This document shows positions 21,788 through 63,955 of a stretch of 64,000 nt of DNA, piece after piece. Where the stretch lies: assembly GCA_038060895.1 (NCBI GenBank), contig JBBTCT010000015.1:96001-160000 (forward strand). The letters are read 5' to 3'. A program made the translations under genes and the position numbers. The stretch comes from Planctomycetota bacterium. Its GTDB lineage: Bacteria > Planctomycetota > MHYJ01 > WSZJ01. Position 1 is the first letter of the stretch. Every line of letters begins with the position of its first letter. The notes beneath the pieces were generated by a model that was not told the DNA's origin, searched no databases, and saw only the letters and a list, made by a program, of their open reading frames with translations.

Positions 21788-24196
21788 TTACGACTTTGCC
21801 GCCGCCGTTTGCGGGCCGTCCGCCGGGATCAGGACACCCTCTCGCTGCGACTCGAGCAGGAGGTCGTCCAGCGAGCGCTTCACGGCCCCGGATCGCTTGA
21901 GCAACTCGCCCAGGACGTTCGCAAGGAAGCGGACGCCGAGGATGCTGGCGTGCTTCACCATCTCGCGGACCTCGGGAGAGAGGCGGTCGATGCGGGCGGT
22001 GACGAGGGAGTTGAGCGAGCCGGGCAGGCGCGCCGTGTCGGAGCTCTTGAGCTTCATCCGGCGGATGACTCGCGTGTGGGTGGCGCCCGAACTCTTCACA
22101 ATGGTCGCTTCCCGGGCGCCCGCAGGGACGAGTTCGCCGGTGTCGTGGACGTGGAGGAGGAGCTGTTCGGTGTAGAAGGGGTTGCCGCGCGCCTTGGCGG
22201 TGATCATGCGGAGCGCTTCGGCGTCGAGTTCAACTCCCATGCCGAGGAGGGCCCGGGCCATCGCGGCGGTGAATTCTTCGCCGGCGATCGGCTGGAGTTC
22301 GATGTCGACGAGCTTGGCCTCGCGGGCGAGTTTCAGTTCCGGCTTGGTGCCGTCGTCGGCGAAGCGGGACGTGGAGACGATGGCGAGGGGGAGGCCGGCG
22401 ATGTTGCGCGTCATGGCCAGGAGCCACTCTGCCGACGATGCGTCGAGCCAGTGGGAGTCCTCCACCTCGATGACGACGGGCGCGACGGCGGCCAGCGCGC
22501 GGACGAGTTCCTTGACCGCGATGATCCGGTTTTCGTGCCGGAGCTTGGGGTCGTCCAGCTTTTCGAACGGCGACCCTTCCCAGTGGCATTCGACCATGTC
22601 GGCCGCGAAGCTCAGCGTGCGCTTCAGCTCGCCGCGCGTGTACTCGGGAACTTTCGGGTTGTCGGTGTATTCCGCGTAGCGCTTCTCGATCGCCTTCTTC
22701 TTCGGGCCCTGGGGCATCCCGTCGGTGACGGCAAAAAAGTTGCGCAGCCAGGTGCCGACGGAATTCCAGCCGGACTTGTGCACGCCGTCGCAGGGCATGT
22801 GGATCCAGTGGAGGCGCTTGCCGGTTTCCTCGAGCCTGGCGCGGAAGGCGGCGGTCAGGCGTGTCTTGCCGAGGCCGGGCTCGCCCAGCAACCGGACGAC
22901 GCCGACGAACTCCGGCGTCGCCGCGAAAATCGGCGCGGCAAAATCGACGAGTTGGCCCAGTTCCTTGTCGCGCCCCAGCATCGGGTACTTGTAGGTGAAT
23001 CCCAGCGCCGAGCCCCGCTTGCTCCCGGGCTCAAACGCCTCTTCCTTCTTCGCTTTTCCCTTCATCTTGAACTTGCCCTTGGACTTCATTTCCCATCCCG
23101 ACTCCGCCGCCTGCTTGACGCGGCCGCTCGCCAGCGTGGCGCCGGTTCCGGCGCTCGCCATGAGACGCGCGCTCGTGTTCACGGCGTCTCCGAGGCACGA
23201 CCACTCGTTGCGACGCGTGCCGCCCACAGGACCCGTGTAGCACAGCCCGGCGTCGAGCCCGATCCGGGCTTTGACGCCTTTGAGCTTCGGAAGAGACGTC
23301 GCGCGGAAGGCCTGGGCGAAAGCGACCGCGTTGCTCTCCGCGTGTTCCGCCGCTTTCGGGGCGCCAAAGAACGCCAGCGCCGAGAACGCCTTGTCACCGA
23401 ACATGATCCGGTTGAGAACGCCTCCCTGACTTCCAATCCCGGTGACCAGCTCCCGGAAGACTCCCTGGATCTGCTCGTGCGTCTTGACCCCCTCGAACTG
23501 CATGAAGGTGCTGGCCACGTGCCGCAACTCCGCCCGGTCGCCCGCTTCGACAATCTCGGAAGGGAAAAACAGCTCCAGCGCGCTCTTCGTCGGCGCCGGC
23601 AACTTGACGGTGGGCGCGTCCGATGCCACTTTGGACGCTCCCTTCAGGACCTTCGTGACCGCCGGGCCCAAACGGACCTGCCCCTTGCGCGCCCCGTGCT
23701 CCGCCTCCGAGGCGCCGTTGATCGCGTCGCCGCGGAAATACCAGGTCCGCGCCTTGCCGTCGGCCGACTGCGGGATGCCCCACTCGATTTTCCCGCGCTC
23801 AAGCCCGCACTTCACGGCAAACCGGATGTTCTTGCTCCCGAGCTTGGCGGTGCCGCGCTTCTTCACGAATTCCATGATTTCGCCCGCGGCATCGCGCGCG
23901 CGCGCGGCGACGGCTACGCCGTCCTTGCCGCTTTCGGCAAAGACTGCCATGAACGCGTCCCCGGCGAAGGCAGCGATAAACCCGCCTCTCTTGTGGACGG
24001 CGTCCACCATCGGGTCGAAGAGCCGCGTGAGTTCCCGCGAGATGACTTCTGCGCCGGAGTCGCCCAGCTTGAAGGCCCGCTCCGTCAGGGGAGTGAAACC
24101 GCTGATATCGACGAACAACGCCGTTCCCGCCAGCGTTCCGCTCTTCTTCCCGGCCTTGTCCTGCTCCTCTACGAAACCCGGAATGTAGTTCTGCAT
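21788..24196 (-). CDS. Tandem class III adenylate/guanylate cyclase (soluble-AC type) fused to STAND AAA ATPase; lacks the usual C-terminal WHD end and TPR region
   Basis: C1 FVDISGFT and FAGDA; C2 GDK and GDAVNTSAR; Walker A GEPGLGKT; Walker B EVEDSHW; GNPF; ARIDRL; SD GGAGAGG before ATG 24196. Confidence 0.9.
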   Translation of the reverse strand: MQNYIPGFVEEQDKAGKKSGTLAGTALFVDISGFTPLTERAFKLGDSGAEVISRELTRLFDPMVDAVHKRGGFIAAFAGDAFMAVFAESGKDGVAVAARARDAAGEIMEFVKKRGTAKLGSKNIRFAVKCGLERGKIEWGIPQSADGKARTWYFRGDAINGASEAEHGARKGQVRLGPAVTKVLKGASKVASDAPTVKLPAPTKSALELFFPSEIVEAGDRAELRHVASTFMQFEGVKTHEQIQGVFRELVTGIGSQGGVLNRIMFGDKAFSALAFFGAPKAAEHAESNAVAFAQAFRATSLPKLKGVKARIGLDAGLCYTGPVGGTRRNEWSCLGDAVNTSARLMASAGTGATLASGRVKQAAESGWEMKSKGKFKMKGKAKKEEAFEPGSKRGSALGFTYKYPMLGRDKELGQLVDFAAPIFAATPEFVGVVRLLGEPGLGKTRLTAAFRARLEETGKRLHWIHMPCDGVHKSGWNSVGTWLRNFFAVTDGMPQGPKKKAIEKRYAEYTDNPKVPEYTRGELKRTLSFAADMVECHWEGSPFEKLDDPKLRHENRIIAVKELVRALAAVAPVVIEVEDSHWLDASSAEWLLAMTRNIAGLPLAIVSTSRFADDGTKPELKLAREAKLVDIELQPIAGEEFTAAMARALLGMGVELDAEALRMITAKARGNPFYTEQLLLHVHDTGELVPAGAREATIVKSSGATHTRVIRRMKLKSSDTARLPGSLNSLVTARIDRLSPEVREMVKHASILGVRFLANVLGELLKRSGAVKRSLDDLLLESQREGVLIPADGPQTAAAKS

Positions 24197-24363
24197 CGAT
24201 TTTCCTCTCCCTGCTCGCCAAGTCGGCGAGGCGTCCCACATTAGCAAAGTTCCGCCATTGTTCAATTGCGGGAGATACTGTTACTGCCCGCCCCGATCGG
24301 GGGCCGAACCGTTATCATTCGCGAAGTGCCGCGCGCTGGGCGGCGCAGGGGGAACGCGACGGA

Positions 24364-25746
24364 ATGAGCACGCAGGAGCCGAACTCCACGACCCTGGATC
24401 CGCCGTTGTCCCCGGGGCGCTACGTCGTCGTCCGTGAACTGGGTCGCGGCGGCATGGGCGTCGTCTACCAGGCCCGCGATACCCTTCAGGACCGCCACGT
24501 CGCACTCAAGGTGTTCCCCCTGGACCTCGATTCCGGCGGCGGCACCGAACTGTCCGCTTCGTCCGTCCAGCGCCTCATGCGCTTCAGGCGCGAAGCGACA
24601 TTCGCCGGCCTCGTCCATCCGAACATCATCCGGATCTACGATTTCGGGATCTGGAAGCACGACGGAAGGACCTCGTTTGCCATCGTCCAGGAGATGGTGC
24701 AGGGCATTGCGCTCAGCGATGTCCTGCTGGCAGAACGCGCCGCTGCCGGCTCCTTGCGAAGCGCTTCGCGTGCACGGCTGTTGCGGGATTTCATGCGCGC
24801 CTGCGAAGGGATGTCGTACGCCCACGAGGCGGGAGTCGTGCACCGGGACCTGAAGCCTGCAAACATCCTGCTGGTGCCGGATTACACCCGTGCCCGCGTG
24901 CTGGATTTCGGGCTCGCGAAATGGCTGGGGCGCGCCGACCCGGTTCCATCCGGCGTTTCGTCACAGGAGGACCCGTACCTCAGCATGGAAGGCGCGGTGA
25001 TGGGGACGCCGTTGTACATGGCTCCCGAACAGGCGGCGGGAGCGCTCGAGCGCATGGACGTTCGCGCCGACGTCTGGTCCCTGGGCGTCGTTCTCTACGA
25101 GATTCTCACGCACCAGCTCCCGTTTTCAGGTGACTCCACAGCCCAGGTCCTGTCGCGTGTCGTGAGCGAACCGGCGCCGGCGCCGAACGAGGTCCTCGGG
25201 CGGCTTCCCGAAACGAGCAGGTTCGCCGATCCGGTGCCGAAGGCTCTCGAGGAAATCGTCGGCCGGTGCCTGCGCAGCGCCCCCGCGGAACGCTACCCGT
25301 CGGCTCGCGCACTTCTCGAAGACCTCGAGCGCTACCTCGCCAGCCCCCGCGGCGCCCTCGATCTTCTGCCGCCCGCCGGCCGCCGCCGCTTTGCCGCCGG
25401 CGAATGCATCGCCCGCGAAGGCGAGCCCAGCAACACGATGTACGTCCTCGAGCATGGCCGCGGCACCGTCATCATCGAGAAGGCCGGCTGGTCGCAGAAA
25501 TGCACCGAGGGATTTTTCGGGGAAGCGGCGCTTCTCCGCACCGGCCAGCCGCGCACCGCGACGCTCCGCGCGGGTGACCAGGGCTGCGAGCTGATCGAGG
25601 TCGCGGACGAAGCGACCCTGCTCCGGCTTCTGCACGAATCTCCGCTGATCGGCGTCCAGGCGATCCGCGAGCTGCACTCGCGGCGGGTGCTGGCGGAGGA
25701 GTACTACGTCCGCAGGATCGAGGAGCTCGGGCGCGGAAAAGTCTAG
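24364..25746 (+). CDS. Ser/Thr protein kinase with C-terminal cyclic-nucleotide-binding domain
   Basis: GRGGMG, HRDLKPAN, DFGLA, GTPLYMAPEQ; cNMP domain REGEPSNTMYVL...FFGEAALL...PRTAT. Confidence 0.92.
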   Translation: MSTQEPNSTTLDPPLSPGRYVVVRELGRGGMGVVYQARDTLQDRHVALKVFPLDLDSGGGTELSASSVQRLMRFRREATFAGLVHPNIIRIYDFGIWKHDGRTSFAIVQEMVQGIALSDVLLAERAAAGSLRSASRARLLRDFMRACEGMSYAHEAGVVHRDLKPANILLVPDYTRARVLDFGLAKWLGRADPVPSGVSSQEDPYLSMEGAVMGTPLYMAPEQAAGALERMDVRADVWSLGVVLYEILTHQLPFSGDSTAQVLSRVVSEPAPAPNEVLGRLPETSRFADPVPKALEEIVGRCLRSAPAERYPSARALLEDLERYLASPRGALDLLPPAGRRRFAAGECIAREGEPSNTMYVLEHGRGTVIIEKAGWSQKCTEGFFGEAALLRTGQPRTATLRAGDQGCELIEVADEATLLRLLHESPLIGVQAIRELHSRRVLAEEYYVRRIEELGRGKV

Positions 25747-25758: not shown

Positions 25759-27189
25759 TCACTCCGTGGGTTGCGCAACCTCAAAAGGCGGCATGCCGGC
25801 CCGGACGCAGGCTTGCTTCATGTCCGCGAGCTTGATTTCGGCCTGCCGCGAGTCGCCGATCTCGAGAACCATCCGAAAGCCCTGAATCCAGCTTTCCCTC
25901 GCCGCTTCCACCCGGCCGCGGGTGAGCATGAGGAGCGCGTATTGGCACAGATGAAGGGACTCGAAGCGCCTGCTGCGGACTTCGCGATGAAGGGCCAGCG
26001 CGGCCTCGTAGAAACTCTCCGCTTCATCCAGTCTCCCGGTCTCCGCGTAGAGTGAAGCGAGATTTCCCATCACGATGGCCTCGGAGCGCCGGTTGCCGAC
26101 TTCCCGGTGAAGCGCCAGCGCGCGCCCGTACGTGCGCTCGGCGTCGGTCGCCCTGCCCGTCGCCTGGTAGAGGCTGGCCAGGTTTCCATACACGATTCCC
26201 TCGCCGATCATGTTGCCCACCTCGCGCTTGATTGCGATAGCGGCGTCGTAGGCGCGCTCGGCTTCGTCGAACCGCCCCAACTCCTGGTAGAGCCCGGCCA
26301 GGTTGCCCAGCCCGATGCCCTCGGCGCGCCGGTCGTGGAACTCGCGATTCAGCGCCATGGCCTCCTCGTATCCGCGTTCGGCCTGCTCGACGCGCCCGGT
26401 TTCACGGTGCAGTCCCGCCAGGTTTCCGATCTCCAGGCCTTCGGTCCTCCGGTTGCCGCACTGTCGATGAATGGCCAGCGCCTCCTCGTGCGTGCGCTCC
26501 GCCAGCTCGACTCTTCCCGTCTGCCGGTAGATGTTGGCCAGGCTCCCCAGCGTCATGCCCACCGCGCCCAGGTCGCCAAGTTTCCGGTGGATGGCGAGCG
26601 CCTGCTCGTGGAAGCGCTGGGCCTGTTCCACCCTTCCCGTTGCGTTGTTCAGGACTCCCAGGTACCCCAGGGCGGCGGCCTCGCCGCCCGGGCTTCCGGC
26701 CTCGCGGAAGACGTCCACCGCTTGCGCCAATAGCGGCTCTGCTCGGCCCATCCCGCCGGCCCGGAAGGCCGCGTGCCCGGCTCGCCGCAGCGACTCGCCC
26801 TTCTCCACCCCCGCGACAAGTTCTGAATGTTGCTGCCACAGCCGTTCGGAAGACTGATTCTGGAAGTGCCTCGTGGCGTACTCGGCCGCCCTTCCCAGGT
26901 AGTGTTTCCTGGCCTCGAGCATCGCCTTGCCGCGGGCGGCGGCGGCGTGAAGCGCCAGGCCGGCGTGCTCGGCCAATTCCTCCGCGAATGCGTCCACGGG
27001 GTGGGGAGGGACATCCACACTTCGCGAGGATTCCTGCGGAGGGATGTCCGGCCCCGGTCCGCCTGCCAGCTTCTCGATGACCGCAAACGCAATCGCATGC
27101 AGTCTCGCGCGGTCGCCCGGCAGCTGAAGCTGGTAAGCGGCGTCACGCAGCAGTGCGTGGCGGAACAGGTACGCCTTCTCGGCAGTCAC
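25759..27189 (-). CDS. Stand-alone TPR protein with N-terminal YLFRHALLRDAAYQLQLPGDRARLH module (copy A)
   Basis: 40-aa TPR repeats (ALAIHREVGNRRxEG); GTG start 6 nt after GATACT. Confidence 0.88.
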   Translation of the reverse strand: MTAEKAYLFRHALLRDAAYQLQLPGDRARLHAIAFAVIEKLAGGPGPDIPPQESSRSVDVPPHPVDAFAEELAEHAGLALHAAAARGKAMLEARKHYLGRAAEYATRHFQNQSSERLWQQHSELVAGVEKGESLRRAGHAAFRAGGMGRAEPLLAQAVDVFREAGSPGGEAAALGYLGVLNNATGRVEQAQRFHEQALAIHRKLGDLGAVGMTLGSLANIYRQTGRVELAERTHEEALAIHRQCGNRRTEGLEIGNLAGLHRETGRVEQAERGYEEAMALNREFHDRRAEGIGLGNLAGLYQELGRFDEAERAYDAAIAIKREVGNMIGEGIVYGNLASLYQATGRATDAERTYGRALALHREVGNRRSEAIVMGNLASLYAETGRLDEAESFYEAALALHREVRSRRFESLHLCQYALLMLTRGRVEAARESWIQGFRMVLEIGDSRQAEIKLADMKQACVRAGMPPFEVAQPTE

Positions 27190-46260: not shown

Positions 46261-46316
46261 GGGCCGATTATGACATGGCTCCCGGAAGCAGGCGGGAAAC
46301 AGCGGTGCGGCGCCTG

Positions 46317-51000: not shown

Positions 51001-51226
51001 CGCCGGACCCGGGCGCGGGCGCCGGCGCGCGGACGGACGGGACCAGGGACGGAAGGGCCACGGCGGAGACGAAGGGCGCGGAGGCGGCGACGTCAGGAGG
51101 CCCCTCGGCTCGCGCGGGAGCCTTGATGGACGAAGCGCCTGCGCGGCACTCGGCACAGAAGAGCCCCGTGGTCGGCGGCTCGACCGGCTTCCCACAGCGC
51201 TTGCAGGATCGTCCCCCCGTGGTCAT
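48071..51226 (-). CDS. Ser/Thr kinase with N-terminal Zn ribbon, Pro/Ala linker, beta-sandwich and TPR-like C-terminus (chlamydial PknD-like architecture)
   Basis: CKRC...CAEC; GSGGMG, HRDVKPAN, DWGLA, GTPGYMSPEQ; FLALPD...YR...EG..ARF. Confidence 0.88.
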   Translation of the reverse strand: MTTGGRSCKRCGKPVEPPTTGLFCAECRAGASSIKAPARAEGPPDVAASAPFVSAVALPSLVPSVRAPAPAPGSGAVESKIAAPTETLKRSEMQTEAAPVPAPEAPPAPPAAGEVAEQAAAAPIPEYPELAAISEVPRPRPAAPHPATNKSTPPSVAALRPASVLPAAMRDLLPGKIAGHEITGILGSGGMGKVFLAKEPVLGREVALKVLKPKDVHELLLMHRLLDEAVVTGRLGHPGIVPIYQVGKDPDFGLWYTMKVVEGKSLEDILNDLREEIPAAVERYTLPALLDIFKRTCEAIGFSHHHGVVHRDVKPANIMIGEFGEVVVMDWGLARMPDERAEHEMLAPASAALLAREPGGESQKRTAVRTIKGTPGYMSPEQANADPAGPASDVYALGSILYQMLTKRLPVDGRGVQEILAKTVAGQIIPPEKRAGVRGLPKALCQMAMKALSLKPEARFPTARELAHEVEAYLDGRVPWQPREDGWQSTGGAWDTQEGRLRSGPGVKSKAFHRGRLGGDVRFKATIVPSKDRTSLDTGVWLAVPSLSSPEGYLFRLLTGERGRVEFLRNGAIVARRLDIPLDAGLEHRAEIVREGPRLRLFIDDQLAIDHREVFPMRGDRLAVSTESSGVSLASVTVESHGPPLQLDFLALPDKVLSMGQMKEARMLYRDMAEAHADRSEGVIARFKAAQCSIEMGELPEAQADLKLLEGTGYEALGVLGQAKIRQKEGKGKEMWAVLLQGMEKHRGDPARLELRAMANGVLEQAERESPAAARDLYMQMLTVPGLMPHETAQVCADFLRMSAVAGPDKVRQEAMALLDAHKQRIELRMECHAALARLDLPKENAPAVRGHLEKTLGLTEGLNDDDRVRLVLWLTESLLGGGNIGEAEALLASVAASMEPKSLAAFRIRHWRTLLSCAQGNWSGAQKLLGADLSPGTTPHHYLGLLLATLTANSMLSTAKALGILHERSEKVADWKAPSEALAGKAPGAGFVRWLDRQPGELHAPLAVASAMILSARGDKPGAEAMRACAAADKIGKSLTDWMLRNKRWA

Positions 51227-51455
51227 CGCGGGTATCCTAGTCGCTTCGTTGCCGGAAGCAATCCGGGAAAAATCGGGCGGTTTGCGGTTCCCCGGACCCT
51301 GAAAACAAAACATCTGCCTGCGCGGGATTTTTTCTGCGTTCGCCTTTGATTTTCCGGATCCCACTGCTTCATGCGCTGGAAAATCAAAGACGGGTCGCGA
51401 ATGAAAGAGAATCGAAGAGAATACGACCTGGCATGAAGGAAAGGGCCGCAGCCGC

Positions 51456-55417: not shown

Positions 55418-55603
55418 ATGAGAACCCCGACGATCCGCCTGCGCCCTCTGGTGCCCCTCGCAGCCCTCATCACCCTGGCGCTCACGCTCGAGAACGACTG
55501 GCGCAAGGCAACCGTGCTGAAGCGCAGAGTCCCCGGGATCAAGGAAGAGGACCTGGATCGCTTCCGGACGTGGCCCGTCGAGGGCGACGAGATCCTTGAG
55601 TGA
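55418..55603 (+). CDS. Small hypothetical protein leading the TPR array
   Basis: TACCAT 7 nt before ATG; GTGA overlap with TPR copy B. Confidence 0.5.
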   Translation: MRTPTIRLRPLVPLAALITLALTLENDWRKATVLKRRVPGIKEEDLDRFRTWPVEGDEILE

Positions 55604-57066
55604 CCAGGGAGCGCCGGCGATCGAATGAGACAACGCGCGGGGTTTGCGGATTGAATGCCGAGTCCGCTTACCTCTTCAGGCACGTCCTGCTCCGCGATGC
55701 CGCCTACCAGTTGCAGCTCCCCGGCGACCGGGCGCGGCTGCACGGGATTGCGCTCGCTCTGATCGAGGACTTCTGCGGCGGCAGGCCGCCGGAGCAGGCG
55801 CCCCTCGGATCACCGTCGGCCGCAGCCTTCGAGGGACACCCTGCCGACGCGTTCGCCGGAGAACTCGCGGGGCACGCGAGGGCCGCGGAAACCGCGCTGG
55901 CCGCGGGTGCGTTCAGCCGCATCCGCCGGCTGTATCTGCGTCGCGCTGCAGAATACGCGGAGCGGGCCTTTCGCCTCGAGGCCGCTTCTGCCGCCTGGCA
56001 GGAACTGGCGGCGCTTCTCGACCCGCCTGCCGAGGCCCTGGCGCTGGGGAAAGCGGGAGAACTGGCACGCCACGCCGGGCGTGCGGTCGAAGGCGCCCAG
56101 ATGTGGCAACGGGCCCTCGAGATTCACCGTCGCCTCGGGAATCGGGCCGGGGAAGGGATCGCGCTGGCCCACCTGGCCAATCTGAGCGTCGACCTTGGAC
56201 GGATCGAAGAGGCCGAAGGGCGCTACACGGAAGCGCTGGCACTTCATCGAGAGACGGGCGAGGTCCGCTATGAACATGTCACGATGGGAAACCTCGCGAT
56301 TCTCTATCACGACTCCGGCCGGCTCGAAAGCGCCGAACGGACGCTGGAAGAGGCGCTGGCCCGCTGCCGCGCTGCCGGCCATCGCGATCTCGAGGCCGTG
56401 ACGCTCGGCAACCTCGGCAACCTCTACAAGGAGACCGGACGCACCGGGGAGGCGGAAACCGCTCTTCTCCAGGCCCTCGCGCTTCATCGCGAAGCCGGCA
56501 ACGAGCGCTATGTCGGAATCCTCCTTGGGAATCTCGCCAACTTGCGCAAAGACACGGGCAGGACGGCTGAAGCGGAGCGAGGTTACGCGGAGGCGCTTGC
56601 GGTCCACCGGCGGACGGGAAACCGGCGGTCCGAGGGAATCGTCCTGGGGAACCTCGCCGGCCTTTTCCCCACGGACGCTCGCCCCGCGGAAGCGGAGCGC
56701 GGGTACGAGCGCGCGTTGGCCATCCATCGCGAAGTCGGCAACCGGCGGGCGGAGGGCGTCGAGCTTGGGGGGCTCGCCGCGGTCTTTCAGGCCACGGGCC
56801 GGCTCTCACCGGCGATCCGCGCGTTCGACGAGGCCCTTGCCATCCACCGCGAAGTCGGCAATCGGCGCTTTGAGGCCGCGCACTCCTGCGACCGCGCCCT
56901 CGCGCTTCTCGATGCCGGCGATCCCGCGGCCGCCGGCGCCTGGCGGTCGGGGGCGGCGCTTCTGCGCGACCTCGGAGATTCGAACGAAGCGGATCAGAAA
57001 TCCGCCGAAATGCGCGCGGCGTGCAACCGTCGGGGCGTGCAGGCGTTCGAAGGGACGTGGGCGTGA
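55600..57066 (+). CDS. Stand-alone TPR protein with YLFRHVLLRDAAYQLQLPGDRARLH module (copy B)
   Basis: Same N-terminal module and 40-aa TPRs; start GTG 55600 or TTG 55651. Confidence 0.88.
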   Translation: MTRERRRSNETTRGVCGLNAESAYLFRHVLLRDAAYQLQLPGDRARLHGIALALIEDFCGGRPPEQAPLGSPSAAAFEGHPADAFAGELAGHARAAETALAAGAFSRIRRLYLRRAAEYAERAFRLEAASAAWQELAALLDPPAEALALGKAGELARHAGRAVEGAQMWQRALEIHRRLGNRAGEGIALAHLANLSVDLGRIEEAEGRYTEALALHRETGEVRYEHVTMGNLAILYHDSGRLESAERTLEEALARCRAAGHRDLEAVTLGNLGNLYKETGRTGEAETALLQALALHREAGNERYVGILLGNLANLRKDTGRTAEAERGYAEALAVHRRTGNRRSEGIVLGNLAGLFPTDARPAEAERGYERALAIHREVGNRRAEGVELGGLAAVFQATGRLSPAIRAFDEALAIHREVGNRRFEAAHSCDRALALLDAGDPAAAGAWRSGAALLRDLGDSNEADQKSAEMRAACNRRGVQAFEGTWA

Positions 57067-57158
57067 ACGCGGAGAACGCTTACCTCTTTCGTCATGCGCT
57101 GCTGCGGGATGCGGCTTACCAGCTGCATCTCCCTGGTCGAGACGACCCGAGGTTTTGA
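57063..57158 (+). pseudogene. Truncated TPR-cassette stub (copy C): MNAENAYLFRHALLRDAAYQLHLPGRDDPRF*
   Basis: Manual translation; GTGA overlap with the copy B stop; not in the ORF track. Confidence 0.8.
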
Positions 57159-57261
57159 GGCGTTCGAGCGAACGAAGAAAGGCAAGTTCGCGACGCGCTT
57201 CTGCGCGACGCGGCGCGATTTTGTGGTTCAGCCGAGCTCCGGGATTTCGCAGAATACCCGC

Positions 57262-58356
57262 ATGCCAGGCGCGATTCCGCTGAACGAGGAGAACCTGGAC
57301 CTGGGGTTCGAGCCGCCCTTCTGTCTCGTCTGCGGAGAACCCGCACCCCTTGTCAAACGTGAACACGTCAATATCCGGGATTGCGCGGAGCCGCCTCCTT
57401 CCCCCGCCGAGGCGCGCTCCCGGCTGTTTCGGCGCACGATTCGCATCCAGGCCCCGCTCTGCCGGCGTCATCGGAGAAACGCGATTCTTCGAAGGGCAGT
57501 CTACGGCGTCGGCATCGGTCTTTTCACCCTGATCCTGGCTTCATATTTGTTCGTGACGATCAAACCGCGACTCCCGTTCCTGATCGTCCCCGTCTGCGTC
57601 GCCGCATGGATGGGCGTCGCCGCCGGGCGATCCAGGTCCGGAGGCGTCGAACCCGATCTGCTCGTCGAGCGGAAAGATGGCGGTCGCGATCTCGTCTGGC
57701 TGAATCCGCCGCCGGGGCTGGGCGCCCGCCTCCGGCCCCTGGATTATCCGGTTCCGCCGCAGCGGACATTCGATGAGATCGGGACCCCGGCTACCCCCTG
57801 GCTGCTCACGATCCCTCTCAGAGGCGAACAACCGTACTTCGGCAACGACCCGCCTCTCTGCCTGATCTGCGGCGCGCCGGCGACAGGCTTCCGAAAGGTC
57901 GAAGTGGCCCTCGCCGATGGACCGCCGGACGAGGACGGCCAGCGCATCCACCACACCCCAGGTCCCCGGTCGCTTCAGCCCCGGACGACTCCTCCGGTAC
58001 TCGTGACGGTGCAGGCGCCCCTCTGCGCCGAGGAACTGAAGAAGGAGAGGCGGTTTTCCCTCAGCGGAGGCTTCGGCTGCCTGATGATCCTGCTCCTCAT
58101 CGTCTCGTTTTCCGCCATATCCGTTGTCTGGCCGGAGACGATGTTCGCCAACGCCGTGGATAAGGGGTACGTCACGTGGCTTTTCCTCGGGCTTGTGCTC
58201 GTCTGGATCGCCAACGCCAGGCATCCCAGGGACCTCACCGCCAGGGTCCTCGATGAAGGAAGCGAGCGCTGTCTCGCCTGGAGAAACCCACCCCGCGAAT
58301 TGGACCGCGAGATCCACCGCCGCCGTTGCCGCCGCGCTGCGACGGCCCGGGACTGA
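57262..58356 (+). CDS. Membrane protein with two tandem CxxC...PLC + 2TM modules
   Basis: FCLVCGEPA...QAPLC...TM-TM...WLNPP, repeated as LCLICGAPA...QAPLC...TM-TM...WRNPP. Confidence 0.75.
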   Translation: MPGAIPLNEENLDLGFEPPFCLVCGEPAPLVKREHVNIRDCAEPPPSPAEARSRLFRRTIRIQAPLCRRHRRNAILRRAVYGVGIGLFTLILASYLFVTIKPRLPFLIVPVCVAAWMGVAAGRSRSGGVEPDLLVERKDGGRDLVWLNPPPGLGARLRPLDYPVPPQRTFDEIGTPATPWLLTIPLRGEQPYFGNDPPLCLICGAPATGFRKVEVALADGPPDEDGQRIHHTPGPRSLQPRTTPPVLVTVQAPLCAEELKKERRFSLSGGFGCLMILLLIVSFSAISVVWPETMFANAVDKGYVTWLFLGLVLVWIANARHPRDLTARVLDEGSERCLAWRNPPRELDREIHRRRCRRAATARD

Positions 58357-58365: not shown

Positions 58366-59967
58366 GTGAACGCAGCCTTCGACTCGCCGGACCTGAGGGA
58401 GCGTCAGCGAGCCGAAGGGCGTCGCTCGCCCGGGCCGGATTCGGCGGAAGCCGCCTACGTCTTTCGACACGCGCTCCTCCGCGACGCCGCGTATCAACTG
58501 CAGCTTCCCGGCGACCGCGCGCGGCTGCACGCGCTGGCGTTTGCGCTGATCGAGGATCTCTGCGGCGGCCGTCCGCCGGAGCCGCCGCCGCTGGACGCGC
58601 CCGACCCGCCGCCGTTCGCGCCGCACGCAACCGATCCGTTCGCGCGGGAGCTGGCGCAGCACGCGCGGGAAGCGATCCGGTCGCCGGCGGTCCCCGCGTC
58701 GGCGCTTCACCTCTACCTCCAGCGCGCCGCGGTGGTCGCCGAACGCACGATTCAGCCGGGAGCAGAGGAGTGCTGGCTGGAACTGGCGGACATCCTCGAG
58801 GGGACGCTTCAAGGCGCGGCGTTCCTGCACGCGGGCCAGGTCGCCCGCGCGAGAGGCCGCCCCGGCTCCGCCGAGATTCATTTTTCGAAGGGGCTCGCGG
58901 TGAGCCGCGCGGTGGGCGACCGCCGCCAGGAGGCGCTGGTCCTGGGGAGCCTGGGGATCGTGCACCAGGATACGGGGCGCATCGAGGAGGCCGAACGGAC
59001 GTACGGGGAAGCGCTCTCGATCCATCGTGAGCTCGACGACCGCCGCGCGCAGGGCCTCCCGTTGGCAAACCTGGGGAACCTCTACGGGGAGACCGGCCGG
59101 CTCGAGCAGGCCGAGCGGACGCACGAGCAGGCACTGGCGATCCATCGGGAATTCGGCAACCGCCGGCTGGCGGGCATTTCGCTCGGGAACCTGGCGAACT
59201 GTTGCCTCGCGACCGGACGCCTCGAGCAGGCCGAGCGGTTGTACGAGCAGGCGCTGGAGATCGATCGCGCCGTCGGCAATCGCAGCTACGAAGGCCTGGA
59301 GCTGGGAAACCTCGCGCTTCTCTTCAACATGACCGGGCGCGTCGAGCAGGCCGAGCGGACGTACGAAGAGGCGCTCGCGATCCATCGCGAAGTCGGCAAC
59401 CGCCGCTGGGAAGGCACCGCGCTCGGGAGCCTGGCCGTCGTTTTCAAGGAGACCGGGCGAGTCGAAGCGGCCGAGCGGACCTACGAGCGGGCGCTCGCGA
59501 TCCATCGCGAAGTGGGCAATCGCCGCGGCGAGGGGGTCGCGCTGGGACAGCTGGCCAACATCTACCAGGAGTCCGGGCGCGTCGAGGAGGCCGAGACGGC
59601 CTACGAACGCGCGCTGGCGATCCATCGCGAAGTCGGCAACCCGCGCTTCGAGGGCATCGAGCTGGCCAACCTCGCGAGTCTCTATTACGAGAGCGGGCGC
59701 ATCGAGCAGGCCGGGAGCTTCTTCCTGCGCGCTCTCGAGATCATGCGCGCCACCGGGGACCTGCGGTCGGAAGGACTCACCCAGGGTTCCTTCGCCGTGT
59801 TCCTCGCGAGAACGGGCCGCGCCGCCGAAGCGAGGGCGCGCTGGGCCGAGGGCGTGGAGACGCTGAATCGAAGGGGGAACGCGAAGGACCTGCGCCGCAT
59901 GACCGAGGACATGCGCGCCGCGTGCGCGAAGGCGGGGACGGCGCCATTAGATGAGGGAGGGGGATAA
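58366..59967 (+). CDS. Stand-alone TPR protein with YVFRHALLRDAAYQLQLPGDRARLH module (copy D)
   Basis: Same module; about 8 highly regular 40-aa TPRs; start codon uncertain. Confidence 0.88.
   Translation: MNAAFDSPDLRERQRAEGRRSPGPDSAEAAYVFRHALLRDAAYQLQLPGDRARLHALAFALIEDLCGGRPPEPPPLDAPDPPPFAPHATDPFARELAQHAREAIRSPAVPASALHLYLQRAAVVAERTIQPGAEECWLELADILEGTLQGAAFLHAGQVARARGRPGSAEIHFSKGLAVSRAVGDRRQEALVLGSLGIVHQDTGRIEEAERTYGEALSIHRELDDRRAQGLPLANLGNLYGETGRLEQAERTHEQALAIHREFGNRRLAGISLGNLANCCLATGRLEQAERLYEQALEIDRAVGNRSYEGLELGNLALLFNMTGRVEQAERTYEEALAIHREVGNRRWEGTALGSLAVVFKETGRVEAAERTYERALAIHREVGNRRGEGVALGQLANIYQESGRVEEAETAYERALAIHREVGNPRFEGIELANLASLYYESGRIEQAGSFFLRALEIMRATGDLRSEGLTQGSFAVFLARTGRAAEARARWAEGVETLNRRGNAKDLRRMTEDMRAACAKAGTAPLDEGGG
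58375..58420. repeat. REP-like hairpin
   Basis: gccttcgactcg...cgagccgaagggc; inner part resembles 32250-32277. Confidence 0.5.
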
Positions 59968-60076: not shown

Positions 60077-60102
60077 CCCCCGCTTCGTACCATGCACCGG
60101 CC

Positions 60103-61515
60103 TTGCACGCCGAAATCGTTTACCTCTTCCGCCACGTCCTCCTCCGCGACGCCGCCTACCAGCTTCAGCTCCCCGGCGACCGCGCGCGGCTGCATGCGCT
60201 CGCGTTGGCGCTGATCGAAGACCTGTACGGCGGCAGGCCGCCTGTGCCGCCTCCGCAGGACCCCGGGGAACCCCTGGGATTCCAGGAGCACCGGACCGAT
60301 CCGTTTGCCGAAGAGCTGGCGGGTCATGCCGCCCACGCGGGGATCGAAGCGGCGCCCGCCGTCGCGAATCTGTACCTGCGCCGGGCCGCGCAGGACGCCG
60401 GTCGAAGGTGGCGGCTTGAGACGTCGGGCAAGTTGTGGCGGCAACTCGCGGAACGATCGACGGGGGTCGAACGCGGCGCCGCCCTCCTCCATGCCGCAAA
60501 CATGGCGCTCGACGCGGGGCGGTCGCTGGAAGCCCTGCCGCTGGTCGAGCAGGCGCTGGCGCTTTTCCGCAGCGAAGGCCACCGCCATTTCGAAGGCGTC
60601 GCGTGGGGAACGCTGGCGAGCCTTAACCGGGAACTGGGCCGGATCCAGCAGGCGGAAGCGGCCGATGAAGCGGCGATGTCGATTTTTCGCGAGACGGGGG
60701 ACCGCCGTGGCGAGGGCACGGCCCTGGGAAACATGGCGAACCTGCTTCGGCAGTCCGGACGCGTTCCGCAGGCCGAGGGCGCCTACAGGCGGGCGCTGGC
60801 GCTTCATCGCGCCGTTCGCAACCGGCGATCGGAGTCGATCGTGCTGGGAAGCCTCGGGAATCTCCTGAAAGCGACCGGCCGGCCCCGCGAGGCCCGGCGC
60901 CTCTTCAGGCAGGCGCTCGCGATCCAGCGCGCCCTCGGCGACCGCCTGCTGGAAGGCACCGGCGTGGCCAATCTGGCCCGAATGGACCAGGCCTCCGGAC
61001 AGCTTCGCCGCGCCGAGCGCGGCTACGCGCAGGCCTTGGCGATCCACAGGGAAGTCGGCGACCGGCGCTTCGAGGGTGTCGCCGTGGGCAACCTCGCCAC
61101 GCTTCACGCGCAGACCGGACGGCCCGGGCTGGCAGAGAAGGGGTTCGAGCAGGCGCTGGCGATCCACCGGGAAGTCGGCAACCGGCGGTCCGAGGGCATC
61201 GCGCTCATGAACCTGTCCCGCCTGCAGGGCGAAACCGGGCGGGCCGCCTCCGCCGAAGCCGGATTTGCGCAGGCCCTGACCCTCTTTCGCGATTCGGGCT
61301 CACGGACCGCGGAAGCCGTGTGCTTTTGCGACTTCGGCGTATTCCTGCTCGACAGGGGCCGCGTCGAAGAGGCGCGCGCGAAGTGGCGCCAGGGGGCTGG
61401 AATCCTGCGCGACCTCGGGGACACGGCGGAGCTCCAGCAGAAAACCGTGGCGATGACGGCCGCGTGCTCCAGGGCGGGAATCCCGCCGCTCGCCGAGGCG
61501 TTGGACGAACATTGA
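60103..61515 (+). CDS. Stand-alone TPR protein with YLFRHVLLRDAAYQLQLPGDRARLH module (copy E)
   Basis: Same module and TPRs; TTG 60103 preceded by TACCAT (track start 60070). Confidence 0.87.
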   Translation: MHAEIVYLFRHVLLRDAAYQLQLPGDRARLHALALALIEDLYGGRPPVPPPQDPGEPLGFQEHRTDPFAEELAGHAAHAGIEAAPAVANLYLRRAAQDAGRRWRLETSGKLWRQLAERSTGVERGAALLHAANMALDAGRSLEALPLVEQALALFRSEGHRHFEGVAWGTLASLNRELGRIQQAEAADEAAMSIFRETGDRRGEGTALGNMANLLRQSGRVPQAEGAYRRALALHRAVRNRRSESIVLGSLGNLLKATGRPREARRLFRQALAIQRALGDRLLEGTGVANLARMDQASGQLRRAERGYAQALAIHREVGDRRFEGVAVGNLATLHAQTGRPGLAEKGFEQALAIHREVGNRRSEGIALMNLSRLQGETGRAASAEAGFAQALTLFRDSGSRTAEAVCFCDFGVFLLDRGRVEEARAKWRQGAGILRDLGDTAELQQKTVAMTAACSRAGIPPLAEALDEH

Positions 61516-61572
61516 GAGTCTGGCATCCTGGCCGAAGTTCGGGTAAATAGAGCGCTTCCCGGAGGAAAACCG

Positions 61573-62439
61573 ATGAGAAACCTGGCCTTGTCGCTCCTGC
61601 TCTTCGCCGTCGCCGGCTGCTCTTCCGAACCCGAGCGGGCCGCTTCGAAACCGGACGTCGACGCGCTCGCGGGCAAGCGCGCGGCGATGGACCAGCCGGT
61701 CCCCGATTTCACGCTGCGGGACCTGACCCGCGACGGCGCCTTCGTGTCGCTCGCGGAGCTTCGCGGCCGCGCGGTCGTGCTTTTCTTCTTGAGCCCCAAC
61801 TGACAGGCCGCAAAGGGCTACGAAGCCCGCGTCGGCCAGGTCCTGGCCGACTACAAGGGCAAGAACGTGACGATCCTCGGCGTCCGGAGCAGCTCCACCG
61901 ACACCGACGAGGAAGTCCGGAAGTACGCGACGGAGAAGAGCCTCTCGATCCCCGTTCTCGCCGACGACGGCAACGTCCTCGCCGATTTCTTCAACGTGCC
62001 GAACTTCATGGTCTTCGTCGTCATCGACGCCGAGGGCCGCATGCGGTCGTGGGGCGGCATCGACGATCATCACGACGAGAAGCGCGCGAAGCGCCCGCAC
62101 CTCCGCAACGCGCTCGACGCGGTCCTGGCCGGGAAGGACGTCGCGGCGAAGCGGACCTTCGCCTTCGGGTGACCCATCCCCCGCTCGGTTCGTCGAACCG
62201 AGGCCGAGGCGACCCGCGATTTCGAGGCGTTCGTGGGGAGTCTCTCGGACGAAGGGGTGACGGGGCGGTTCAAGAAGTTCCTTCAGACGGACGAGATGCG
62301 GCCGGCCATGGTCCAGGCCCTCCAGAAGGGCGTCCGCATGGACCTCGCGGTCGAGAACTACTACGAGCGCACGAAGGACGGCAAGTTCGTGATGAAGGCG
62401 GAGATGGCGGAGGTGATGGGGGAGATGTTCCCGGAGTAA
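61573..62439 (+). CDS. Peroxiredoxin-like/redoxin lipoprotein with two in-frame UGA codons (candidate selenoprotein)
   Basis: GGAGG SD; AVAGC lipobox; PDFTL; FLSPN-UGA(61801)-QAAKGY; GGIDD; TFAFG-UGA(62170)-PI; track ORFs 61573, 61867 and 62233 are all in one frame. Confidence 0.75.
61806..61837 (+). promoter_or_regulatory. Candidate bacterial SECIS hairpin after the first UGA
   Basis: GGGCT-ACGA-AGCCC stem starts 11 nt after the UGA, inside an outer GGCCG/CGGCC stem. Confidence 0.5.
62184..62202 (+). promoter_or_regulatory. Candidate bacterial SECIS hairpin after the second UGA
   Basis: CTCGGTTC-GTC-GAACCGAG stem starts 11 nt after the UGA; loop begins with G. Confidence 0.55.
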
Positions 62440-62455
62440 CGCTTAGAATCCGCCG

Positions 62456-63955
62456 GTGCGCTCCGCCGAAGCTGCTTATGTGTTCCGCCACGCGCTCATG
62501 CGTGACGCGGCGTACCAGCTCCAGCTCCCCGGCGACCGCGCGCGACTGCACGGACTGGCGTTCGCGCTCATCGAAGACCTGTGCGGCGGCCGCGCCCCAG
62601 ATCCCGCGCCGTTCGAAGAGTCCGGCGGGGCGCCGGATGCTCTCCACGCGTCCGACGCGCTGGCCGAGGACCTGGCGGCCCACGCGCGGCATTCGGGAGC
62701 GCCGGCGTCCCTCGAGCTGCTGTACCTCCGCCGCGCCGCGGGCCGCGCCGAACGGCAGTACGATTTGGACGCGGCCGAATCCCTCTGGAGCCGCGTCGCC
62801 GCGCTGCTTCCGGAAGATCAGGCCGCGGCGGCCCTCCAGTACGCCGGGCGCTGCGCGGTCTTTCGCTCCCACTACGGCGCCGCGGAGGAGATCTTCCAGC
62901 GGCTGGTCGAGCTCGGGAAGAGTGCCGGGAATCCCCGCGCCGTCGCCGCCGCGCGGAACAACCTGTCCATCGTGTTCCGGGAGACCGGGCGGCGGGCGGA
63001 AGCGATCGAGGCATCGCGCGATGCGATCGCGAAGTTCCGCGAAGGCGGCTTCCCCGCCGAGGAGGCCCGCACGCTGTCCTCCCTCTCCCACCTCGAGCTG
63101 GAAGCGGGTCGGCCTCTGGAGGCGGAGGCGCTTCTCCGCCGGGCGCTCGAGCTGATCGCGGCTCACGGGAAGCCCCTCGACGAGGGGCTGGCGTGCATCA
63201 GCCTCGGCAGCGCCCTCAACGCCCTGGCGCGCTTCCCCGAAGCCGAGGCGTCGATGAGGCGCGCCGTCGACATCCTGCGCGCCGCCGGCGCGCGTCGCTA
63301 CCTCGCCATCGCCCTGAGCAACCTCGGCCAGCTCCTGCAGGACTCCGAGCGCATCGAGGAGGCGCTGGCGCTGCTCGAAGAGGCGCTGGCGATCCACCGT
63401 GAAGTAGGCAACAAGCGGTCCGAAGGCATCACGCTGGGGACCCTCGCCCTCGTCCACCAGAATGCCGGACGACATGACCGCGCCGAGGCGATCTACCGCG
63501 ACGCGCTCTCCGTCAACGAGGAGACCGGCAACCGCCGCCAGTTCGCCGTCGTCCTCGGCAACATCGGGTCCCTCTGGCAGGAGCGCGGCAAGTTCGCGGA
63601 AGCCGAGGCCCTCTACCGCCGCGCCCTCGCCCTCCACCGGGAGGTCGGATACCGCCGCTTCGAAGGCATCATCCTCGGCTCGCTCGCCATCGTGTCCCTG
63701 GTCACCGGCCGCCTCGACGACGCCCTGCGCCTCTTCCGCGACGCCGTCGCCGTCCATCGCGCCGTCCGCAATCGCATGCACGAGGGCGTCCACCTCTGCG
63801 GCCTCGCCGCGGCGCTTCGGTGTCAGGGCGATGCGGCGGAAGCGCGGGCCGCGTGGGATGAGGGGGCGGCGATCCTGGCCGAAGTCGATCTCCGGAGGCT
63901 GGAGCACGCGCGGGCCCTGGCCCGGCAGGTGTGCGGCGACGCATTCGAGTCCTGA
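62456..63955 (+). CDS. Stand-alone TPR protein with YVFRHALMRDAAYQLQLPGDRARLH module (copy F)
   Basis: Same module and TPRs; TAGAAT 6 nt before GTG. Confidence 0.88.
   Translation: MRSAEAAYVFRHALMRDAAYQLQLPGDRARLHGLAFALIEDLCGGRAPDPAPFEESGGAPDALHASDALAEDLAAHARHSGAPASLELLYLRRAAGRAERQYDLDAAESLWSRVAALLPEDQAAAALQYAGRCAVFRSHYGAAEEIFQRLVELGKSAGNPRAVAAARNNLSIVFRETGRRAEAIEASRDAIAKFREGGFPAEEARTLSSLSHLELEAGRPLEAEALLRRALELIAAHGKPLDEGLACISLGSALNALARFPEAEASMRRAVDILRAAGARRYLAIALSNLGQLLQDSERIEEALALLEEALAIHREVGNKRSEGITLGTLALVHQNAGRHDRAEAIYRDALSVNEETGNRRQFAVVLGNIGSLWQERGKFAEAEALYRRALALHREVGYRRFEGIILGSLAIVSLVTGRLDDALRLFRDAVAVHRAVRNRMHEGVHLCGLAAALRCQGDAAEARAAWDEGAAILAEVDLRRLEHARALARQVCGDAFES

What the first reader, a model, noticed from the sequence alone, without database searches (positions are those of the whole stretch)
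21788..63955. Split STAND/NLR-like adenylate cyclase with a repertoire of interchangeable TPR sensor subunits
Seen: the cyclase-AAA protein (21788-24196) has both cyclase domains, Walker A/B, GNPF, ARIDRL and ASILG. It ends at ...ESQREGVLIPADGPQTAAAKS*, and the 67 bp before the next gene hold no frameshifted continuation. Five intact genes (25759-27189, 55600-57066, 58366-59967, 60103-61515, 62456-63955) and a stub (57063-57158) all start at or just before xAExxY(L/V)FRHxL(L/M)RDAAYQLQLPGDRARLH, followed by TPRs in the intact genes. Known: in full-length cyclase-AAA-TPR proteins the YxFxHxLxRDxxY motif directly follows the segment where this cyclase stops. It is part of the winged-helix domain, and its His is generally treated as equivalent to the nucleotide-contacting MHD His of NLRs. 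Inference: the receptor is split inside the WHD. One catalytic core would be completed in trans by any of several TPR subunits with different specificities, giving a swappable-sensor innate-immunity or signalling system.
Basis: partly seen in the sequence, partly recalled or inferred. Interest (0 to 1): 0.92.

Follow-up and report, generated by a model that had tools for sequence, protein, structure and literature searches.

The report
Split cyclase receptor, many TPR sensors
An uncultured groundwater planctomycete carries one adenylate-cyclase switch protein that lacks the last piece of its regulatory domain, plus about 54 separate sensor genes that each begin with exactly that missing piece, so it looks like a natural mix-and-match receptor.

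Summary
The cyclase-STAND core (21788-24196, minus strand) stops in the loop of the winged-helix "wing" hairpin. The same ~800-aa truncated form is conserved in about 25 Planctomycetota MAGs at 52-90% identity. The stop is reproduced in a contig from an independent DNA study.

The five TPR genes and the stub in the window belong to a family of 61 copies in this genome, 54 of them intact. All start 6-7 codons before AYLFRHALLRDAAYQLQLPGDRARLH. That motif has dN/dS of about 0.06 with saturated synonymous sites.

In fused relatives (38-39% identical) the motif follows the point where the core ends, after a 6-25 residue loop. Core and family co-occur: 15 genomes have both, 35 have neither, one has the family only and none has the core only.

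A complex prediction docks the TPR N-terminus onto the core's half-domain (ipSAE 0.74, best control 0.00).

Best reading (about 0.65): a naturally split sAC-like STAND receptor whose domain and nucleotide latch are completed in trans by interchangeable, fast-turning-over TPR sensors. Binding, ligands and biological role are untested. I found no description of it in print.

The parts
21788..24196 (-). Core subunit, 802 aa. It has a tandem class III cyclase (C1-C2, sAC-like), the STAND NBD-HD, and the first part of the WHD, ending after wing strand 1 (GVLIPA, residues 787-792).
   Evidence: Pfam; the best PDB match is human sAC, profile E 3e-31, Foldseek TMt 0.73; 42 clusters of 773-808 aa; unique in the genome.
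21721..21787 (-). 67-bp spacer after the core's stop codon. It holds no continuation of the gene.
   Evidence: A contig from an independent DNA study (X3 record 3, 21733-21972, 0 differences) and a contig from an RNA library (X12 record 1, 21775-22138) both span the stop codon.
25759..27189 (-). TPR sensor subunit P0003, 476 aa, the copy nearest the core. Residues 4-41 supply wing strand 2, the His and the last WHD helix. An arm and 40-residue TPR units follow.
   Evidence: This copy was used in the complex prediction. GTG start 6 codons before the motif Tyr.
55651..57066 (+). TPR sensor subunit. The open frame runs from 55600; the probable start is TTG at 55651.
57063..57158 (+). Stub. It has a start codon and the motif, then a stop 25 codons after the motif Tyr. 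It is one of 7 truncated copies in the genome. Its GTG start overlaps the stop of the gene before it.
58366..59967 (+). TPR sensor subunit P0005, 533 aa. It has an atypically long N-terminal extension, with the start 30 codons before the motif.
   Evidence: It served as the seed for the repeat model.
60103..61515 (+). TPR sensor subunit P0006. TTG start 6 codons before the motif, with a TAnnnT box just upstream.
62456..63955 (+). TPR sensor subunit P0007, 499 aa. GTG start 7 codons before the motif, with TAGAAT just upstream.
24364..25746 (+). Ser/Thr protein kinase with a C-terminal cyclic-nucleotide-binding domain, transcribed divergently from the core. It is a candidate reader of the cAMP signal.
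   Evidence: Pkinase 7.7e-41, cNMP_binding 1.3e-10. The same arrangement is seen in G002, G004 and G007, i.e. 4 of the 6 genomes whose contig covers that flank.

Best explanation
This is a naturally split STAND (NLR-like) soluble-adenylyl-cyclase receptor. One single-copy gene encodes the output and switch: the C1-C2 cyclase, the P-loop NBD, the helical domain, and the first three quarters of the winged-helix domain, ending after the first strand of the wing hairpin.

About 54 dispersed or tandem genes each encode the rest. Each supplies the second wing strand (AYLF), the latch His (FRH), the last WHD helix, the arm and a TPR sensor of 6-10 forty-residue units.

Inferred mechanism. A TPR subunit docks by beta-strand pairing and helix packing. 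This completes the WHD and places the His at the nucleotide, giving a closed ADP-bound heterodimer. Ligand binding to that TPR would open the NOD as in fused TPR-STANDs such as MalT and PH0952, and so switch cyclase output. The adjacent cNMP-binding Ser/Thr kinase is one plausible cAMP reader.

All sensors carry a near-invariant docking peptide but divergent, fast-turning-over repeats. The cell would therefore hold a mixed population of core-sensor pairs that funnel many inputs into one second messenger.

Shown: the anatomy, junction complementarity, conservation, selection, co-occurrence and predicted docking. Inferred: actual binding, exchangeability, ligand sensing and cAMP output.
For: (a) The truncated core is a stable gene. 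42 clusters of 773-808 aa at 52-100% identity carry cyclase plus AAA_16 only. Orthologs occur in about 25 MAGs. Open frames of 788-855 aa were seen in 6 of 6 loci inspected. The catalytic-type residues D30, D80, K269, N340 and R344 are invariant or nearly so.

(b) The junction is complementary. Fused relatives continue, after a 6-25 residue loop, with EAAYLFRHALMQKAAYHLQPPSLRACVH.

(c) The break is in a hairpin loop, at the position of the ADP-contacting His of PH0952.

(d) The motif is under protein-level purifying selection. pS is 0.56 and pN 0.063 over 25 codons in 54 paralogs, and 10 positions are invariant in 54 of 54. The motif stays the same in lineages whose core is only 60% identical.

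(e) The core is the only STAND in the genome cut at this point.

(f) Co-occurrence. Core and family together: 15 genomes. Family only: 1, G006, which is 85% complete. Core only: 0. Neither: 35.

(g) Complex prediction. ipSAE 0.74, 0.74 and 0.73 against a best control of 0.00. The tool's mark was reached by 58 of 80 solved complexes and 2 of 110 mismatched pairs. Partner pLDDT is at least 87 and the runs agree in at least 88% of contacts. Contacts run from TPR residues 4-22 to core 747-762 and 787-792, with core 789-790 against TPR Y7 and F9. P-loop residues 440-441 are also in the interface.

(h) Modelled alone, the core's half-WHD has pLDDT below 50 at 746-766, 768-772 and 787-802.

(i) Interface residues are more conserved than the rest: TPR 0.68 against 0.40, core 0.91 against 0.68.

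(j) The genes start at the motif. 50 of 61 have a start 6-7 codons upstream. 25 of 61 have TAnnnT 4-10 nt before that start, against 0.7% of random positions. Independent gene callers give MHAE.../MNAE... N-termini in other MAGs.
Against: There is no experimental evidence of binding, of cAMP synthesis or of any ligand.

The complex pass may reflect the model's memory of intra-chain STAND structures; 6MFV is a fold relative. Halves of a split gene tend to pass for that reason. The job also used my own alignments and carried an ADP, unlike the tool's calibration.

Interface conservation is expected for any domain core, so point (i) is weak.

G006 has 32 motif copies but no core was found.

Sensors are not syntenic with the core beyond G000 and G002, so there is no operon support.

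How roughly 54 partners share one core is unexplained.

The fused relative used for the model has Ser, not His, at the latch position, so the His is not universally required in this clade.

The RNA-library contigs do not prove transcription.

The genomes counted are related to each other, so the co-occurrence counts overstate independence.
Confidence: 0.65

Rival explanations
1. The TPR family works independently of the cyclase core. On this view its invariant N-terminal peptide is retained from a STAND ancestor for another shared purpose. That purpose could be binding a different common partner, self-association, or folding of the arm domain. The truncated core would then act alone as a sensor-less, constitutive or otherwise regulated cyclase.
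For: Sensors are scattered over 17 contigs and are rarely next to the core. G006 has 32 copies and no detected core. Mammalian sAC has an active truncated isoform that lacks the C-terminal regulatory region (PMC12802110, passages).
Against: The peptide is homologous to the exact piece the core lacks. No other protein in the genome has a matching gap. Core and family co-occur in 15 genomes and the core is never found without the family. The core retains an invariant half-WHD (747-770 and 786-788 invariant in 42 orthologs), which would be pointless without a partner. Docking is predicted.
Confidence: 0.15
2. The TPR proteins do bind the core, but as interchangeable inhibitors (latch donors) or stabilising chaperone-like subunits rather than ligand-specific sensors. 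Their repeat diversity would then be largely neutral drift of exposed residues.
For: The donated piece carries the His that holds STANDs in the ADP-bound off state. Repeat identity within a protein (0.52) is barely above that between proteins (0.485), so there is no sign of recent concerted diversification. The pN/pS of 1.2-1.6 at variable positions is circular, because those sites were chosen for being variable.
Against: Maintaining 54 intact paralogs per genome, and 7-73 in 15 other genomes, is hard to explain for a single generic role. In fused TPR-STANDs the repeats are the inducer-binding sensor (PMC6468293; PMC13581612). Variable positions follow an i, i+3/4 spacing on the helices over a fixed scaffold.
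Confidence: 0.12
3. The finding is an artefact or a decaying locus. On this view the core's stop is an assembly or sequencing error or a recent nonsense mutation, and the TPR genes are 3' fragments of broken full-length genes.
For: 7 of the 61 copies are obvious stubs. The genome is a MAG of 47 contigs at 86.5% completeness.
Against: The same length and end point occur in 42 clusters and about 25 MAGs from many studies. The stop region is identical in a contig from an independent study. There is strong purifying selection on the motif and catalytic residues are invariant. Start codons are regular and promoter-like boxes sit directly at the motif.
Confidence: 0.02

Closest known systems
Fused cyclase-STAND-TPR proteins of the soluble adenylyl cyclase (ADCY10/sAC) type, bacterial and mammalian
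   Same: Tandem C1-C2 class III cyclase. The best sequence and fold match is human sAC. It is followed by a P-loop STAND module. Full-length sAC is predicted to contain a STAND domain (PMC12802110, passages). The nearest fused relatives are Planctomycetota proteins of 1302 and 1400 aa at 38-39% identity. This genome also holds about 15 fused paralogs.
   Different: Here the polypeptide ends in the WHD wing loop. The rest of the WHD, the arm and the TPR sensor are encoded by about 54 separate genes.
TPR-sensor STANDs PH0952 (PDB 6MFV) and MalT
   Same: NBD-HD-WHD-arm-TPR order. A fused relative matches 6MFV_A by Foldseek at E 5.7e-16 over 765 columns. In PH0952 the WHD His (H382), just after the S7-S8 wing, H-bonds the ADP phosphates, and the arm and TPR autoinhibit the NBD (PMC6468293, passages). 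The predicted complex likewise shows contacts from TPR repeats (287-288, 324-327, 362-365) and the arm to the core.
   Different: Those proteins are single chains with a transcriptional output. No natural two-chain form or sensor repertoire is described in the passages read.
Sensor/helper NLR networks and trans-complementing NLR fragments in plants (NRC network; Rx CC-NB + LRR). Both are recalled, not retrieved by any search.
   Same: The logic of many sensors feeding few signalling units, and the fact that NLR pieces can reassemble non-covalently.
   Different: In plants each partner is a complete NLR, or the split is a laboratory construct. Here one domain is naturally divided between two genes, and only one partner has an NTPase.
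Antiviral STANDs (Avs, bNACHT) and fungal NLR repertoires with variable repeats
   Same: A STAND core with TPR-like sensors that bind diverse proteins (PMC13581612, passages). Paralog numbers are large and repertoire turnover is fast.
   Different: No defence context, effector nuclease or protease, or phage trigger was examined. The output is a cyclase. Diversity lies in whole separate genes rather than in alleles or fused sensors.

Membership tests
STAND NTPase (AAA_16 / MalT-like clade) | P-loop NBD with Walker A and Walker B | tested here: met
   Pfam AAA_16 at 5.3e-11, above the curated cut-off. GEPGLGKT (438-445) and the EVED Walker B (577-580) are invariant in 42 orthologs.
STAND NTPase (AAA_16 / MalT-like clade) | Helical domain with the GxP motif | tested here: met
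   GNPF (671-674) is invariant in 42 orthologs. The GxP motif contacts the adenine in PH0952.
STAND NTPase (AAA_16 / MalT-like clade) | A complete winged-helix domain, with the His that contacts ADP, on the same chain as the NBD | tested here: not met
   The core ends after wing strand 1. Strand 2, the His and the last helix are on the TPR proteins. This is the feature that makes it a variant. Whether the His reaches the nucleotide in trans was not resolved; only P-loop residues 440-441 are listed in the interface.
STAND NTPase (AAA_16 / MalT-like clade) | Arm plus repeat sensor C-terminal to the NOD | tested here: not met
   Absent from the core. Present on separate gene products: TPR_12, TPR_10 and TPR_MalT at E down to 2.5e-57.
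Class III nucleotidyl cyclase, sAC-like tandem C1-C2 | Two catalytic-domain folds in one chain, with metal-binding Asp pairs, a substrate Lys and transition-state Asn/Arg | tested here: met
   Pfam finds two stretches. Alignment to human sAC places FVDISGFT, FAGDA, FGDK and VNTSAR opposite the sAC motifs. D30, D80, N340 and R344 are invariant and K269 nearly so. Fold TMt to sAC is 0.73. The residue roles are recalled from the sAC literature, not tested. Enzyme activity is not testable here.
Antiviral STAND (Avs / bNACHT) defence systems | Protection against phage, recognition of a phage protein, and a cell-killing effector | not tested
   No PADLOC scan, defence-island analysis or phage trigger search was run. 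The effector is a cyclase, not a nuclease or protease.
TPR family with N-terminal WHD fragment (defined here) | A start codon 6-7 codons before Y-x-F-R-H-x-L-L-R-D-A-A-Y-Q-L-Q-L-P, then a Pro-rich linker, an arm, 6-10 forty-residue TPR units and a conserved C-terminal tail | tested here: met
   50 of 61 copies have the start at -6 or -7. 53 of 54 intact copies match the repeat model, one with 3 units and the rest with 6-10. All five window genes fit.

The most novel reading that the evidence does not exclude
A combinatorial, innate-immune-like recognition system in a bacterium. A repertoire of about 50 rapidly turning-over TPR sensor subunits per genome would each recognise a different non-self or environmental molecule. 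Each would plug, by completing a split winged-helix domain, into a single shared NLR-like cyclase core, turning any of the inputs into cAMP. A cNMP-gated Ser/Thr kinase would read that signal. This would be a natural precedent for modular, sensor-swappable NLRs.
Probability: 0.25. Interest if true: 0.92.

Novelty: new variant of a known kind. Interest (0 to 1): 0.82.

Why it matters
STAND/NLR switches are described as single chains in which the WHD His clamps ADP and the fused sensor controls opening. A natural system that cuts the switch inside the WHD would show three things. The latch and sensor can be delivered in trans. Sensor specificity can be multiplied by duplicating only the sensor gene. 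One signalling core can serve a whole repertoire.

It also gives a ready-made design for engineering sensor-swappable NLR-type receptors. It offers a tractable two-piece system for studying how sensor, arm and WHD control nucleotide exchange. The relative is soluble adenylyl cyclase, whose own STAND region is functionally uncharacterised.

Finally, it explains about 90 kb (1.7%) of this genome that is currently annotated only as 'tetratricopeptide repeat protein'.

Tried and rejected
DNA-level explanations for the conserved 5' ends (recombination site, cassette or shufflon, gene conversion, mobile-element end) are rejected. Synonymous sites in the motif are near saturation (pS 0.56) while the amino acids are fixed.

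A split intein or RNA trans-splicing was considered and dropped. The core ends about 10 residues after the strand with no intein-like extension, and there is no synonymous conservation.

I searched for other truncated cores in the genome: tblastn with the core, PF13191, NB-ARC and NACHT. None is cut at the wing. One frame, on C45, runs off its contig end.

I looked for a conserved operon partner of the core in distant lineages and found none. The neighbours differ: MbnB-like, M50 protease, DUF58 and kinases.

I tested for high internal repeat conservation as in fungal NLRs. It is not seen: 0.52 within proteins against 0.485 between proteins.

The pN/pS contrast between hypervariable and scaffold positions is kept only as description, because the sites were chosen by their variability.

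My first repeat seed regex was wrong, giving 2 seeds and a 42-residue period. I replaced it with a period-40 seed.

A 'longer' search for fused forms with the family-type N-terminus returned nothing at E <= 0.001. The tool itself rates that as weak evidence.

The terminator and promoter consensus scan around the core showed nothing above shuffles.

From the sequencing runs, parts of the stretch without cover, and runs holding only small shares, are not used as evidence. RNA-library contigs over the core, the kinase and the TPR gene are not taken as proof of transcription.

Literature searches and passages of PMC13581612, PMC7159879, PMC12802110, PMC6468293, PMC3782705 and bioRxiv 10.64898/2026.09.02.748808 gave no description of a STAND split in the WHD with a sensor gene family. 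Supplements were not seen and could hold relevant architecture tables, especially those of PMC7159879 and PMC13581612.

Full report
**Where the window lies.** The window is contig C15:96001-160000 of a 5.42-Mb, 47-contig, roughly 67% GC assembly. Relatives are uncultured Planctomycetota MAGs. Sequencing runs that hold the stretch are labelled groundwater or aquifer metagenomes.

**The observation.** The minus-strand gene 21788-24196 encodes 802 aa. It has two class III cyclase stretches and an AAA_16 STAND NTPase, and no repeats. It ends ...QREGVLIPADGPQTAAAKS*. An unrelated ECF-sigma/PDZ gene starts 68 bp further on, and no TPR or motif remnant lies between them.

Each begins a few residues before AYLFRHALLRDAAYQLQLPGDRARLH.

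**Scale.** A motif regex over the six-frame translation of the whole assembly finds 64 places. Three lie in the middle of full-length STANDs. The other 61 are family-type: 54 intact, with 408-582 aa after the motif, and 7 stubs. They sit on 17 contigs, and 40 of the 61 are in 12 tandem clusters.

By contrast the core is unique. tblastn finds only itself at 100%, and all other cyclase-STAND genes are 24-34% identical. Of 19 such places inspected, those with a NOD lie in frames of 1031-1687 aa, and 9 carry the motif mid-protein. Searches with PF13191 (71 matches; 10 short or odd frames read), NB-ARC and NACHT found no other STAND cut at this point.

**Is the truncation real?** The protein database holds 42 clusters of 773-808 aa, 52-100% identical, all with cyclase plus AAA_16 only. 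The next hits are fused proteins of 1302 and 1400 aa at 38-39% identity. GTDB genomes give about 25 MAGs with the truncated form at 58-86% identity. In 6 of 6 loci inspected the frame is 788-855 aa.

In the genus, 6 of 7 sister genomes have a 72-87% ortholog. G006, which is 85% complete, has none. A contig from a different DNA study covers 21733-21972 without a difference, and a contig from an RNA library covers 21775-22138. Both span the stop. So this is neither an assembly error nor a recent nonsense mutation.

**Junction.** Aligned with the fused relatives, the core stops at the equivalent of ...GFVVPE. After a loop of 6 (P0052) to about 25 (P0053) residues, the fused proteins continue EAAYLFRHALMQKAAYHLQPPSLRACVHRLAGEVIE, which is the N-terminus of the TPR family. 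BLASTP puts the core's NOD on P0052 405-776 and the TPR N-terminus on 783-864. On P0053 the ranges are 444-799 and 826-915.

An AF2 model of a fused relative (P0059, mean pLDDT 84.8) shows strand 734-736, a 7-residue loop, strand 744-747 and helix 750-758. The two strands correspond to the core's GVLIP and the TPR's AYLF. Foldseek relates this model to human sAC and to the TPR-STAND PH0952, 6MFV_A, at E 5.7e-16 over 765 columns.

In PH0952 the wing tip is at residues 374-376, and H382 of the WHD H-bonds the ADP phosphates together with the P-loop (PMC6468293, passages). A preprint on AfsR treats the same His as the MHD equivalent (10.64898/2026.09.02.748808, passages). The split is therefore at the tip of the S7-S8 wing, and the latch His travels with the sensor.

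One caveat applies here. P0059 itself has Ser at that position. A second His (H31 of the TPR proteins, the one in RARLH) is invariant in both the family and the fused set, and its role is unknown.

**Selection.** Across 54 intact paralogs, the 25 motif codons have pS 0.56 (dS about 1.0) and pN 0.063, a ratio of about 0.06. Ten positions are invariant in 54 of 54. The constraint therefore acts on the protein and not the DNA.

The remainder of the proteins averages 27% column identity. The best match of P0003 in sister genomes is 66-68% where the core is 83-87%. The syntenic slot in G002 holds a 48% paralog between flanks of 84-90%. So the sensors turn over quickly.

The repeats have a 40-residue period. 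There are 426 units in 53 proteins, one protein with 3 units and the rest with 6-10. They share a fixed scaffold (G1, R3, R4, E6, G7, L10, L13, A14, G21, R22, A26, A33, L34, R38) and variable positions 5, 8, 9, 15, 17-19, 23 and 29-31.

**Gene starts.** 50 of 61 copies have a start codon 6 or 7 codons before the motif Tyr. 25 of 61 have TAnnnT ending 4-10 nt before it, against 140 of 20,000 random positions. In tandem arrays the start overlaps the preceding stop, as GTGA or TTGA. This suggests leaderless or coupled expression from exactly this point, which is an inference.

**Co-occurrence.** The motif DNA pattern gives 60 hits in G000 and 13-73 in all seven sister genomes. It gives 0 in 33 genomes of other genera, none of which has a core ortholog. 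Eight more distant genomes with a 59-69% core have 7-33 hits. Two genomes that have only fused relatives have 0 and 1 hit, the 1 being the fused gene itself. These genomes are related to one another, so the counts are descriptive.

**Docking.** I folded core residues 405-802 (42-row alignment) with ADP and full P0003 (60-row alignment). The scores were ipSAE 0.74, 0.74 and 0.73, with a best control of 0.00. The tool's mark was reached by 58 of 80 solved complexes and 2 of 110 mismatched pairs. Partner pLDDT was at least 87, and contact agreement between runs at least 88%.

TPR residues 4-22 pack on core 747-762 and 787-792, with core 789-790 against TPR Y7 and F9. P-loop residues 440-441, and TPR repeat loops, are also in the interface. 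The tool warns that split genes can pass from memory of solved folds, and a fold relative (6MFV) exists.

Modelled alone, the core has pLDDT below 50 exactly in 746-766, 768-772 and 787-802 (a different program, so only indicative). Interface residues are more conserved than the rest on both chains.

**Output.** The cyclase half matches human sAC in sequence (profile E 3e-31) and in fold (TMt 0.73). It keeps the residues that align with sAC's catalytic motifs. A Ser/Thr kinase with a cNMP-binding domain is divergently adjacent in 4 of the 6 genus genomes where that flank is assembled.

**Verdict.** Binding, exchangeability, ligands, cAMP output and any immune role remain untested.

I found no description of such a split in seven literature searches and six papers read in passages.

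Noticed in passing
window 42979-46833 (-): A full-length 1284-aa cyclase-AAA-TPR STAND lies in the same window. It is one of about 15 fused paralogs in the genome, each roughly 25% identical to the split core.
   Followed up: partly
window 19702-21720 (-): A 672-aa fusion of an ECF sigma factor (regions 2 and 4) with a C-terminal PDZ-like region starts 68 bp downstream of the core. It holds the same position in G002, at 65% identity.
   Followed up: partly
window 48071-51658 (-) and 51456-54167 (+): Two large Ser/Thr kinases are arranged divergently. One has TPR_19 and the other a C-terminal FGE-sulfatase (formylglycine-generating-enzyme-like) domain.
   Followed up: no
upstream of about 25 of the 61 TPR genes, e.g. 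window 62430-62455: TAnnnT boxes such as TAGAAT, TAGGAT and TATCAT end 4-10 nt before the GTG/ATG start. This suggests leaderless mRNAs. The rate at random genomic positions is 0.7%.
   Followed up: partly
genome-wide, e.g. C5:111801 and C24 (-) 92705; one copy on C15: A CT-rich dispersed intergenic element (CCCTACTCAAC[A/C]CTCAA..., often preceded by CTACC repeats) has 23 copies at up to 2 mismatches. It lies directly upstream of some TPR genes but is not specific to them.
   Followed up: partly
window 57094-58356 (+): A 420-aa open frame sits right after the TPR stub. It has no Pfam match and its status as a gene is unknown.
   Followed up: no
C-termini of the TPR family, e.g. P0003 residues 434-470: The tail W..G..IL...GD......M..AC..AG(V/I)PP(F/L)D is conserved, with a near-invariant Trp and Cys. 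It is not in the predicted interface with the NOD, and the cyclase domains were not in that job. Its function is unexplained.
   Followed up: no
protein P0198 (JGI metagenome, 798 aa): This family member has the docking motif and also a C-terminal APH-type kinase-like domain, so some sensors carry an extra module.
   Followed up: no
G000 C20:50409-51968 (+): A 519-aa STAND-like protein has an intact WHD motif (LLFRHDLLREAA) but no TPR sensor. It is a different kind of shortened STAND.
   Followed up: no
L025 and L037 (same MAG isolate): One distant MAG appears to hold two copies of the truncated core. One is complete and the other is cut by a contig end at residue 634.
   Followed up: no
L024, L026, L029, L031, L039, just downstream of the core: In the lineages whose core is about 60% identical, an MbnB/TglH/ChrH-family gene of about 295 aa directly follows the core, overlapping its stop in L029. 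This gene is not present at that position in the window.
   Followed up: partly
window 21716/21836: One RNA-library contig (X8 record 19) joins opposite strands across the core's stop and spacer region. It is probably a library or assembly artefact, and no terminator-like hairpin was found there.
   Followed up: partly
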